Below, piece by piece: positions 28,079 through 29,211 of a stretch of 43,982 nt of DNA (the stretch's first letter is position 1; each line of letters begins with the position of its first letter). The stretch lies in the UHGV virus genome UHGV-0179801. One strand, 5' to 3'. This stretch comes from a virus. The notes beneath the pieces were generated by a model, which saw only the letters and a program-made list of their open reading frames with translations, did no database searches and was not told the origin of the DNA. The position numbers and the translations under genes are program-made.

Positions 28079-28270
28079 ATGAAATACGAATATGACCGTA
28101 AACCAGCACGTGACATCGTACCTGGCGACATGATTTTCAATGTTAAGACCCGCCGTCCTGTTGCCGTTGATACGGTGTACGTAGAGTCGAACGGTAAACT
28201 GGTTATCGAAGATGTAACCGGTAATATTACGGCGTTTGGGCGTAAAGAGTTAGTTCTGGTGGCGAAATGA
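28079..28270 (+). CDS. hypothetical protein (63 aa)
   Basis: ORF track; AAGGA SD. Confidence 0.6.
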   Translation: MKYEYDRKPARDIVPGDMIFNVKTRRPVAVDTVYVESNGKLVIEDVTGNITAFGRKELVLVAK

Positions 28271-29211
28271 ACTATTACAATGAATGGGATAAAGGCGCTG
28301 CCGCGTGGCTGCGTGAATTAATAAAACAGGGGCACATACCTTTTGGAGTTGTAGATGAAAGAAGTATTACCGAAGTTAAGCCAGAAGACCTCGACGGATT
28401 CACCCAGTGTCATTTTTTCGCTGGTATCGGCGGCTGGCCTCTCGCGCTCAGACTTGCGGGAGTTCCGGAAGATGCGCCTCTCTGGACGGGAAGCCCGCCT
28501 TGCCAACCGTTTAGCGCGGCGGGAAAGCAACTTGGACAGTTCGACCCGAGACACCTCGCGCCAGTCTTCCTCGACCTCATCAGCGAGTGCCGCCCTCCAG
28601 TCCTCTTTGGGGAACAGGTTGCGCCAGCAATTGCAAAATCGTGGATGTGCGATTTACAAACTCATCTGGAAGGAGAAGACTACGCCGTCGGGTTTGCTGT
28701 ACTCCCAGCTTGTAGCGTCGGCGCACCGCACAAAAGAGAACGACTCTTCTTTGGTGCGCACGAATTGGCCTACACCGACAGCGAACGACTACAAGGGGAG
28801 TGGAGAGACAGTGATTCGCAAGGACGGGAAGGACAGAACATTCGACAGGCTGGACTACTCAACGGAGCAGGGGCTGAAACTGACGAGTTGGCCTACTCCT
28901 CGCAGTGCGGACGGAGAAAAGAACGTGAGAACATTAGAGGGGTCGCTATCAGAGATTCGGAGGAAGGGTGGGCCTCAGGACGTAGCGCAAGCTGCTGCAA
29001 TAACACAGCCAATCCGCATCACGGCTTCTGGTCAGACGCTGACTGGCTTGGATGCAGGGACGGAAAGTTCAGGCCAGTTGAATCCGGCACATTCCCGCTG
29101 GCTAATGGGATACCCGCCAGAGTGGGACGATTGCGCGGTTACGGCAATGCCATCGTCCCGCAAGTAGCCGCTGAATTTATAAAGGCGTTCATGGGGGCTG
29201 TAAATGAGTAA
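28267..29211 (+). CDS. DNA (cytosine-5) methyltransferase, frame A
   Basis: 314 aa; motifs I FAGIGG (28417), IV SPPCQPFS (28492), VI FGEQV (28606), VIII GAPHKRERLFF (28720), X GYGNAIVPQ (29137). Confidence 0.85.
   Translation: MNYYNEWDKGAAAWLRELIKQGHIPFGVVDERSITEVKPEDLDGFTQCHFFAGIGGWPLALRLAGVPEDAPLWTGSPPCQPFSAAGKQLGQFDPRHLAPVFLDLISECRPPVLFGEQVAPAIAKSWMCDLQTHLEGEDYAVGFAVLPACSVGAPHKRERLFFGAHELAYTDSERLQGEWRDSDSQGREGQNIRQAGLLNGAGAETDELAYSSQCGRRKERENIRGVAIRDSEEGWASGRSASCCNNTANPHHGFWSDADWLGCRDGKFRPVESGTFPLANGIPARVGRLRGYGNAIVPQVAAEFIKAFMGAVNE
28355..29167 (+). CDS. overlapping +1-frame ORF with MTase TRD/C-terminal-type motifs (frame B)
   Basis: 270 aa, ATG 28355 with GGAG 6 nt upstream; [58 protein letters not shown]; expression unproven. 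Confidence 0.45.
   Translation: [270 protein letters not shown]

What the first reader, a model, noticed from the sequence alone, without database searches (positions are those of the whole stretch)
28267..29211. Cytosine methyltransferase locus is open in two overlapping frames, both carrying MTase-family motifs
**Two ORFs on the same DNA.** Frame A is 28267..29211 (314 aa). Frame B is the +1 frame, 28355..29167 (270 aa), with its own ATG preceded by GGAG 6 nt upstream.

**Frame A.** It has C5-MTase motifs I FAGIGG, IV SPPCQPFS, VI FGEQV, VIII GAPHKRERLFF and X GYGNAIVPQ, plus FWSDADWLGCRDGKFRP..FPLANG. Its segment between VIII and X (about 28760-29020) is low-complexity (ELAYTDSERLQGEW, DELAYSSQCGRRKE).

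**Frame B.** It is Ser/Arg-rich for about 75 codons, then looks like a real protein:
- [32 protein letters not shown] (28595-28732)
- [12 protein letters not shown] (28763)
- [13 protein letters not shown] (28886)
- [39 protein letters not shown] (29015-29134)

I recognise from memory the [WL]PTPxAxD repeats and LNPxxxxWLMGxPxxW as target-recognition / C-terminal modules of phage and prophage MTases.

**Shared nucleotides.** LAYT in A and WPTP in B are the same bases (tTGGCCTACACC). Conserved-looking blocks of both frames overlap at 28595-28750 and 29015-29165.

**Chance expectation.** At about 3/64 stops per off-frame codon, open runs of about 20 codons are expected, not 270. However, 154-183-codon off-frame ORFs do occur elsewhere in this window.

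**Possible readings.**
1. True overprinting, giving two proteins.
2. Recoding. A->B (+1) after motif VIII and B->A (-1) near 29125 would give a textbook I-IV-VI-VIII-TRD-IX-X enzyme, so isoforms with different specificity are conceivable.
3. A relic of compensating frameshifts.
Basis: partly seen in the sequence, partly recalled or inferred. Interest (0 to 1): 0.85.

Follow-up and report, generated by a model that had tools for sequence, protein, structure and literature searches.

The report
Two-subunit cytosine methyltransferase, overlapping frames
This phage gene encodes a DNA cytosine methyltransferase in two overlapping reading frames, most likely as two subunits, an arrangement proven for one E. 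coli enzyme (M.EcoHK31I) and shown here to be conserved across thousands of phage and prophage genes.

Summary
Frame A (28267-29211, 314 aa) and frame B (+1, 28355-29167, 270 aa) are both open.

Both frames are kept open by selection:
- About 90 phage loci and 80 bacterial loci examined show the same pair of ORFs.
- Synonymous-codon shuffles predict 2-6 stops where none occur.
- Substitution phase switches along the gene: A, then both, then A, then B, then both, then A.

Frame A encodes the catalytic large domain (motifs I-VIII) and motif X. An unconserved linker, predicted disordered, joins them. Frame B encodes a helix-hairpin module, 'WPTP' recognition cassettes and a motif IX-like segment.

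This layout matches M.EcoHK31I. There the beta chain lies entirely in another frame of the alpha gene, and both chains are needed for activity.

Frame B is constrained upstream of motifs VI-VIII, and no slippery sites are conserved. Recoding (A to B to A) is therefore unlikely to be the main route.

Verdict: a new member of a known kind. Two points may be new. The family is very large (over 7,800 B-like and at least 8,000 A-like database proteins). The variable recognition cassettes (1-12 copies) evolve under frame-B constraint. Most records I inspected annotate only one frame.

Homology to M.EcoHK31I itself could not be tested. No protein-level evidence was available.

The parts
28267..29211 (+). 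Frame A ORF, the alpha-like subunit (314 aa). It carries C5-methyltransferase motifs I, IV, VI and VIII, then a linker, then motif X.
   Evidence: ORF list. PF00145 60.3 bits. phrog_363 E=1.7e-88. AlphaFold N-domain is confident, and the top Foldseek hits are M.HaeIII and M.HhaI over about 170 columns.
28355..29167 (+). Frame B ORF, the beta-like subunit (270 aa), in the +1 frame and lying entirely inside A.
   Evidence: ORF list. phrog_1008 E=2.3e-60. Over 7,800 database homologues, none of the 216 listed with PF00145. K1H GenBank annotates the equivalent ORF28 as 'Mte8-like protein'.
28345..28357 (+). Candidate Shine-Dalgarno sequence (GGAG 28345-28348) and frame-B ATG (28355-28357). A second in-frame ATG lies at 28472, with GGAG 9 nt upstream.
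   Evidence: Sequence. A frame-B ATG with an SD-like sequence at A codon 29-38 occurs in most loci. AGG Arg is enriched at that site, 11/40 against 8.5% elsewhere. Which start is actually used is inferred, not shown.
28267..28761 (+). Alpha catalytic large domain (A codons 1-165; motifs I FAGIGG, IV PPCQPFS, VI GEQV, VIII APHKRER).
   Evidence: Invariant columns in the 21-sequence A alignment. A-type substitution phase, with pos3 diversity 0.335. AlphaFold pLDDT is mostly 75-94.
28358..28581 (+). Beta N-terminal Ser/Arg-rich stretch (B residues 2-76). It is open but not constrained at the amino-acid level.
   Evidence: A pos3 (= B pos2) diversity is 0.308 here. AlphaFold pLDDT is below 50 for B residues 12-74. 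The stretch still has no stops in any locus, against 1.2-5.9 expected over the region from the frame-B opening to motif VIII, of which it is part.
28582..28716 (+). Dual-coding zone 1 (A codons 106-150). Alpha motif VI and what follows overlap the beta helix plus beta-hairpin ([31 protein letters not shown]).
   Evidence: A third-position diversity falls to 0.150 against 0.335 (Mann-Whitney p=2e-7). This is the only confidently folded part of B, pLDDT 77-88. L23, L27, S64 and R67 are invariant in the B alignment.
28762..29031 (+). Variable region. In frame B it holds two 'WPTP' recognition cassettes (starting at 28766 and 28889). In frame A it is an unconserved linker.
   Evidence: B-type substitution phase: A pos1 (= B pos3) 0.409 exceeds A pos3 (= B pos2) 0.267, p=3e-4. 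The A alignment has no conserved column between A164 and W255. A pLDDT is 31-47 for residues 169-248. Cassette number varies from 1 to 12 among relatives.
29032..29166 (+). Dual-coding zone 2. The beta C-terminus, with the motif IX-like [16 protein letters not shown] (29078-29125), overlaps the alpha block FWSDADWLGCRDGKFRP..FPLANG (29026-29109) and motif X GYGNAIVPQ (29137-29163).
   Evidence: A third-position diversity is 0.142, p=1.6e-7. Invariant L-N-P, W-L-M, P and W in B. Invariant G281, G293 and N294, and near-invariant C263, D265, G266, K267 and R269 in A. hhalign aligns the B block with M.HhaI motif IX.

Best explanation
The locus encodes a heterodimeric DNA (cytosine-5) methyltransferase from two overlapping reading frames of one stretch of DNA.

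Frame A (alpha) supplies the AdoMet-binding and catalytic large domain (motifs I-VIII) and motif X. A flexible linker of no fixed sequence joins them, and it only has to stay free of stop codons.

Frame B (beta) is translated from its own internal start about 90 nt downstream of the alpha start. It supplies a helix-hairpin module (probably the alpha-binding element), a variable array of 'WPTP' DNA-recognition cassettes and a motif IX-like segment. Together these correspond to the small domain of a canonical enzyme.

Alpha and beta then associate non-covalently to form the active enzyme. It presumably methylates phage DNA and so protects it from host restriction.

Shown here:
- both ORFs are conserved and stop-free well beyond chance;
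- the frame under selection switches along the gene;
- the motif content of each frame is as described.

Inferred:
- frame B is translated independently, and from which start;
- the two chains form a heterodimer;
- frame B determines sequence specificity;
- the biological role is anti-restriction.
For: 1. Conservation of both ORFs. The +1 frame is open from A codon ~16-36 to about 15 codons before A's stop in almost all of ~85 phage loci with 43-94% A identity, while the +2 frame has 12-25 stops in most of them. The same holds in epsilon15, BcepC6B, a Rhodobacter phage, Lacticaseibacillus phage R9.1, a T4-like Krischvirus and a cyanophage. In 80 of 80 bacterial genome loci found through the B motif, the -1 frame is open across the match. 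In 62 of them it carries all five A motifs.

2. Synonymous shuffles in 21 diverse loci expect 1.2-11 stops. None are observed in either direction.

3. Substitution phase in 21 Kagunavirus-like sequences. Third-position diversity of A is 0.335 in A-only parts, but 0.150 at codons 106-150 (p=2e-7) and 0.142 at codons 256-300 (p=1.6e-7). At codons 166-255 the most variable position is B's third position (p=3e-4).

4. The A alignment has no conserved column in the linker. B has invariant W, T and P of the first cassette and invariant LNP..WLM..P..W.

5. AlphaFold predicts a confident alpha N-domain and C-terminal helix with a linker at pLDDT 31-47. Foldseek matches only the large domain of M.HaeIII and M.HhaI.

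6. Natural fusions. Frame B runs in frame into a Dam domain (P0205/L092) and into a PD-(D/E)XK nuclease (L109). Frame A runs into a D12 Dam (L034).

7. Frame A stays open across about 330 codons of a 10-cassette B (L090) and across HNH genes inserted in the +1 frame (L035, L082).

8. A frame-B ATG with an SD-like sequence is present at A codon 29-38 in most loci.

9. Precedent. [quoted passage not shown]
Against: No protein-level or ribosome-profiling data were available, so translation of frame B is inferred.

Beta alone folds poorly in AlphaFold (mean pLDDT 55). Its similarity to a canonical small domain therefore could not be tested by fold search.

The motif IX assignment rests on a short hhalign match (E=0.096, probability 0.6%) and on pattern similarity. 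The B profile finds nothing in PDB sequences.

The literature places the TRD of M.EcoHK31I on alpha, which differs from what the substitution phase indicates here.

One locus (L064) has a stop inside B.
Confidence: 0.82

Rival explanations
1. Programmed recoding. Ribosomes start in frame A, shift +1 after motif VIII into frame B, then shift -1 before motif X. This would make one canonical I-VIII/TRD/IX/X polypeptide, with or without alpha and beta as by-products.
For: The order of motifs along the DNA is that of a textbook enzyme: I, IV, VI and VIII in A, the variable region and motif IX in B, and X in A. The motif IX-like block ends at 29125 and motif X begins at 29137.
Against: Frame B is constrained from A codon ~106, upstream of motifs VI-VIII, so that stretch must be read in both frames. 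Frame B is kept stop-free for a further ~75 codons upstream, and frame A through the whole variable region, which recoding does not require. No X_XXY_YYZ heptamer or homopolymer is conserved at either junction in 21 loci. The characterised precedent works as two chains.
Confidence: 0.06
2. Only frame A is a real gene. Frame B is an accidental open frame, produced by the amino-acid and codon composition of this methyltransferase family.
For: B homologues are found only as the +1 frame of A-type genes. B has no Pfam or NCBIfam family. Most records inspected annotate only A. Long off-frame ORFs do occur elsewhere in the window.
Against: Shuffles that keep the A protein and its codon usage predict stops in B in every locus. 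In the variable region the substitution phase follows B, not A. Conserved residues are in B, not in A, in that region. B is fused in frame to Dam and to a nuclease domain. The control +1 ORF in the helicase gene decays in close relatives.
Confidence: 0.04
3. Only frame B plus a short frame A product matter. Continuity of frame A through the variable region is incidental, and motif X is dispensable or supplied in some other way.
For: The linker of A has no conserved residue and is predicted disordered.
Against: Frame A is stop-free through 68-269 linker codons in 21 loci, against 2-11 stops expected. It is also stop-free through about 330 codons in L090 and through inserted HNH genes. Motif X (G293, N294) is invariant and shows A-type constraint.
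Confidence: 0.04

Closest known systems
M.EcoHK31I (E. coli, YGGCCR), the alpha/beta C5-methyltransferase (Lee, Kam and Shaw 1995; Fung et al. 2006, as cited in PMC2836561 and PMC3404938)
   Same: The large chain carries motifs I-VIII and X. The small chain is encoded entirely within the large chain's gene in another reading frame and carries motif IX. There, the beta N-terminus is needed for association and internal Met codons can serve as starts. Here, the beta N-terminal region is partly unconstrained, several in-frame ATGs exist, and a conserved helix-hairpin module follows.
   Different: Sequence homology was not tested because the sequence is not in the tools. The literature assigns the TRD to alpha. 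Here the variable region evolves under beta-frame constraint and the alpha reading is an unconserved linker. The frame-B ORF here is 270 aa. From memory, M.EcoHK31I beta is about 176 aa (not checked here), which is close to the ~190-aa constrained part of B. M.EcoHK31I is part of a restriction-modification system, whereas this is a solitary gene in a phage replication module.
M.AquI (two-subunit C5-methyltransferase)
   Same: It is a naturally split C5-methyltransferase whose two polypeptides must associate.
   Different: M.AquI is split within the variable region into I-VIII and IX-X pieces. As I recall, these come from adjacent genes, though the text read describes only the subunit contents. 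Here motif X stays on the chain with I-VIII and the second chain is embedded out of frame.
Multispecific Bacillus phage C5-methyltransferases (SPR, phi3T, rho11s); from my own knowledge
   Same: They are phage-encoded, with several short target-recognising modules in tandem in the variable region. Module number and order differ between phages.
   Different: Those are single polypeptides in one frame. Whether each WPTP cassette here recognises a separate target is untested.
Lambda Rz/Rz1 spanin genes; from my own knowledge
   Same: One gene is embedded in the +1 frame of another, and both products work together in one function.
   Different: The proteins and function are unrelated. Rz1 is short, whereas here the overlap is nearly the full gene (813 of 945 nt).

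Membership tests
C-5 cytosine DNA methyltransferase (Pfam PF00145) | The whole protein scores above the Pfam gathering threshold, and catalytic motifs I (FxGxG), IV (PCQ), VI (ENV-like), VIII (QxRxR-like) and X (GN) are present. | tested here: met
   Frame A scores 60.3 bits against a cutoff of 22, though only over residues 68-166. All five motifs are invariant or nearly so in 21 diverse homologues. The structure model matches M.HaeIII and M.HhaI.
C-5 cytosine DNA methyltransferase (Pfam PF00145) | The small domain (TRD plus motif IX) lies on the same polypeptide, between motifs VIII and X. | tested here: not met
   Frame A has no conserved residue between A164 and W255 and is predicted disordered there. 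The motif IX-like sequence is in frame B.
M.EcoHK31I-type alpha/beta C5-methyltransferase | The alpha ORF carries motifs I-VIII and X. | tested here: met
M.EcoHK31I-type alpha/beta C5-methyltransferase | The beta ORF lies entirely within the alpha gene in a different reading frame. | tested here: met
   28355-29167 lies inside 28267-29211, in the +1 frame. The arrangement is conserved in about 170 loci.
M.EcoHK31I-type alpha/beta C5-methyltransferase | Beta carries motif IX. | tested here: inconclusive
   The only hhalign hit of the B profile on M.HhaI aligns [16 protein letters not shown] with M.HhaI residues 270-290 (motif IX). However, E=0.096 and probability is 0.6%, and hmmsearch against PDB finds nothing.
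M.EcoHK31I-type alpha/beta C5-methyltransferase | Both polypeptides are required for methylation. | not testable with these tools
   This needs expression of alpha, beta and both together, with a methylation assay.
M.EcoHK31I-type alpha/beta C5-methyltransferase | Sequence homology to M.EcoHK31I alpha and beta. | not tested
   The original paper (PMC306636) and the supplement of PMC2836561 are not held, so no sequence was available.
Programmed ribosomal frameshift gene | A conserved slippery sequence lies at the frame junction, and the zero-frame stops or decays after it. | tested here: not met
   There is no conserved heptamer or homopolymer. Both frames stay open far beyond the junctions.
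De novo overprinted gene | The second frame is taxonomically restricted and lacks relatives among older protein families. | tested here: not met
   Frame B is conserved from Lacticaseibacillus phages to proteobacterial phages, cyanophage and many bacterial phyla. It also carries a canonical-looking motif IX. Only its N-terminal helix-hairpin might be overprinted, and that is inference.

The most novel reading that the evidence does not exclude
The whole very large family of 'short' phage and prophage C5-methyltransferases (phrog_363 with phrog_1008; at least 8,000 A-like and over 7,800 B-like database proteins) consists of obligate alpha/beta enzymes. DNA specificity resides in a cassette array of 1-12 'WPTP' modules on the out-of-frame beta chain, possibly making the enzymes multispecific. 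The alpha reading of the same DNA is a spacer selected only to contain no stop codon, for up to about 330 codons. This would correct the textbook placement of the TRD on alpha in M.EcoHK31I. It would also mean that records annotating only the alpha frame miss half of each enzyme. As far as the searchable literature shows, this generalisation has not been described.
Probability: 0.45. Interest if true: 0.7.

Novelty: new member of a known kind. Interest (0 to 1): 0.5.

Why it matters
Long, same-strand overlapping genes that are functional in both frames are rare in double-stranded DNA phages and bacteria. Here 813 of 945 nt are read in two frames, and the arrangement is conserved across distant phyla. 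That makes it a natural test bed for how two proteins share one sequence: structured in one frame, spacer in the other, and both constrained in two short zones.

Practical consequences:
- Most records inspected annotate only one frame. Predictions of methyltransferase specificity from the alpha sequence alone would then miss the chain that appears to carry recognition.
- The cassette structure of beta suggests a simple route by which phages change or add methylation specificities to escape restriction.
- It also suggests parts for engineered split methyltransferases. M.EcoHK31I has already been used for that purpose.

Tried and rejected
- Pfam and NCBIfam on frame B gave no hit.
- phmmer and a B-profile hmmsearch against PDB sequences found nothing meaningful.
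- AlphaFold of B alone gave mean pLDDT 55, too poor for a fold search, so none was run on it.
- Literature searches for 'Mte8' and for overlapping-gene methyltransferases in phages found only a passing mention of the annotation. The origin of the name 'Mte8' stays unknown.
- The original M.EcoHK31I paper and the supplement that might hold its sequence are not held.
- tblastn of B against plasmids found only phage-plasmid or prophage copies annotated as 'DNA cytosine methyltransferase'. None was seen to be annotated as a restriction-modification system.
- I looked for single-frame relatives with PCQxFS and the WPTP region on one chain among 216 B-family proteins and found none.
- I considered predicting an A-B-A hybrid or an alpha+beta complex.
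Full report
**What is there**

The window belongs to a Kagunavirus-like (K1G/K1H-type) E. coli siphophage. The 945-nt query matches Escherichia phages vB_Eco_K-01 and phiEc4 at about 94% identity.

The locus sits between a VRR-NUC gene, a small ORF and an SNF2-type helicase. 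Its ATG overlaps the upstream stop, and the helicase ATG (29204) overlaps its end.

Frame A passes Pfam PF00145, but only over residues 68-166. Frame B has no Pfam or NCBIfam match. In PHROGs, A is phrog_363 and B is phrog_1008, both labelled 'DNA methyltransferase'.

The GenBank record of phage K1H already annotates both ORFs, as 'C-specific methylase' and 'Mte8-like protein'. Most other records inspected annotate only one frame.

**Is it more than chance?**

Yes, on five counts.

1. tblastn with the conserved part of B hits 246 phage records. In epsilon15, BcepC6B and a Rhodobacter phage the match lies in the +1 frame of the annotated methyltransferase CDS. Both frames are open there, and the third frame is full of stops. 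The same holds in Lacticaseibacillus phage R9.1, Pseudomonas phage PMG1, a T4-like Krischvirus and a cyanophage.

2. In 79 IMG/VR loci with 43-90% identity to A, the +1 frame is open from A codon ~16-36 to about 15 codons before A's stop in almost all. The +2 frame has 12-25 stops in most of them. The exceptions are one locus with an internal stop in B (L064), two contigs with a 1-nt indel in a T6 run (L021, L037) and a few truncated contigs.

3. I shuffled synonymous codons while keeping the protein and the gene's own codon usage. The shuffles predict 1.2-5.9 stops in B across A's N-domain and 2-11 stops in A across B's variable region. None is observed in any of 21 diverse loci; per-locus P of zero is 0.000-0.26, typically 0.005-0.05.

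4. As a control, the 183-aa +1 ORF inside the neighbouring helicase gene (29916-30467) carries 2-6 stops in close relatives.

5. I found 80 bacterial genome loci through the B motif alone. The -1 frame is open across the match in all 80, and it carries all five A motifs in 62.

**Which frame is under selection, and where?**

I measured per-site diversity by codon position in 21 Kagunavirus-like sequences.

- Codons 1-105, 151-165 and 301-314 show the A pattern (pos1 0.115, pos2 0.072, pos3 0.335).
- At codons 106-150 (28582-28716), A's third-position diversity falls to 0.150 (p=2e-7).
- At codons 256-300 (29032-29166) it falls to 0.142 (p=1.6e-7). This is the synonymous-site suppression expected where both frames are constrained.
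- At codons 166-255 (28762-29031) the most variable position is A's first position, which is B's third (0.409 against 0.267, p=3e-4). Selection there follows frame B.

Alignments agree with this. A has no conserved column between A164 and W255. B has invariant W, T and P in the first cassette and invariant LNP..WLM..P..W.

The first ~75 residues of B (A codons 30-105) are unconstrained at the amino-acid level, yet the stretch stays stop-free.

**Anatomy of the two products**

*Frame A.* AlphaFold predicts a confident N-domain (motifs I-VIII), a linker at pLDDT 31-47 (residues 169-248) and a confident C-terminal helix after motif X. Foldseek against the PDB returns M.HaeIII and M.HhaI, aligned over only about 170 columns, which is the large domain.

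*Frame B.* B folds poorly on its own (mean pLDDT 55). The exception is a helix (76-94) plus beta-hairpin (101-123), which lies exactly in dual-coding zone 1.

The variable part of B is built of cassettes. Each begins with W-P-T-P and is about 35-45 residues long. There are two in this phage, one in K1H, three in ST20, and up to about 10-12 in database relatives of 488-561 aa.

Identical cassette types recur in different combinations in different phages.

The C-terminal block [17 protein letters not shown] resembles motif IX. The only hhalign hit of the B profile on M.HhaI aligns it with residues 270-290 (KLHPRECARVMGYPDSY). The support is weak, E=0.096.

**Evidence that each frame is read through to its end**

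- In L092 frame B continues without a stop into a Dam domain (PF05869, E=1.4e-53). In L109 it continues into a PD-(D/E)XK nuclease domain. In L034 frame A continues into a D12-class Dam.
- In L090 a 488-aa, ten-cassette B is accompanied by a frame A that stays open through about 330 linker codons.
- In L035/L036 and L082 an HNH endonuclease ORF is inserted in the +1 frame between the motif IX-like block and motif X. Frame A still stays open across about 165 extra codons.
- A frame-B ATG with an SD-like sequence lies at A codon 29-38 in most loci. It is built from A's conserved D-E-R-S..D-V, where the rare AGG Arg codon is enriched (11/40 against 8.5%).

**Mechanism**

Two polypeptides are the best-supported reading.

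Frame B is constrained from A codon ~106, upstream of A's essential motifs VI and VIII. That DNA must therefore be translated in both frames, which a single A-to-B-to-A product cannot do. No slippery heptamer or homopolymer is conserved at either junction.

Alpha would provide the catalytic large domain, with motix X tethered by a spacer. Beta would provide the small domain, that is recognition cassettes plus the motif IX-like segment, together with a docking module.

This is inference. No proteomic or biochemical data exist for this phage.

**Comparison with what is known**

The architecture is that of M.EcoHK31I. [quoted passage not shown] Alpha carries motifs I-VIII and X, beta carries motif IX, and both are required. 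The beta N-terminus governs association, and internal Met codons can start beta (PMC2836561; PMC3404938).

I could not obtain the M.EcoHK31I sequence. Membership by homology is therefore untested.

There is one difference from the published description. The literature puts the predicted TRD on alpha, whereas here the variable region is constrained in the beta frame and alpha reads it as an unconserved linker. M.AquI is a looser analogue: two chains, but with a different split.

**Novelty and limits**

The kind is known, so this is a new member.

What may be new is the scale and the placement of recognition. It reaches several bacterial phyla. Recognition appears to reside in a shuffled beta cassette array. 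The open-access literature I could search does not mention either point, but that search is not exhaustive.

Remaining weaknesses:
- there is no direct evidence that frame B is translated;
- the motif IX assignment has weak statistical support;
- there is no usable structural model of beta;
- the loci analysed are not phylogenetically independent.

Noticed in passing
L035 about 1530-1930 (and L036); L082 about 2375-2870: An HNH endonuclease ORF (weak Pfam HNH hits) is inserted in the +1 frame between the beta motif IX-like block and alpha motif X. Frame A stays open across the ~165-codon insertion. In L082 the beta C-terminal tail (CAPTETLSMLKR..) is duplicated after the HNH ORF. It looks like a homing-endonuclease insertion that preserves the host gene.
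   Followed up: partly
window 28411-28416 (T6 run in CATTTTTTCGC, motif I); L021 and L037: Two contigs from one metagenome (3300045988) have a 1-nt indel in this T6 run. It moves the rest of A and B each into the next frame. This is probably a sequencing error, but the run sits in a homopolymer at motif I.
   Followed up: partly
window 28267-28440 (A residues 1-58): In frame A the YYNEWDKGAA segment, which phmmer weakly aligns to M.HhaI residues 37-47 (downstream of motif I), lies about 45 residues upstream of motif I (FAGIGG). This suggests a permuted order of the first strand-helix units relative to M.HhaI. The Lacticaseibacillus homologue has the usual order.
   Followed up: no
It is a chance ORF and served as a negative control.
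   Followed up: yes
L092 2501-4057; L034 1501-3342; L109 895-2385: These are natural fusions. Frame B runs into Dam (PF05869), frame A runs into a D12-class adenine methyltransferase (PF02086), and frame B runs into a PD-(D/E)XK nuclease. The first two would combine cytosine and adenine methyltransferase parts in one gene.
   Followed up: partly
window 28267-28270 and 29204-29211: The alpha ATG overlaps the stop of the upstream small ORF (ATGA). The helicase ATG lies 8 nt inside the end of alpha. This suggests translational coupling along the replication module.
   Followed up: no
L064 about 2179: This is the only locus seen with an internal stop in frame B while frame A stays intact (381 aa). 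It may be a decaying copy or an assembly error.
   Followed up: no
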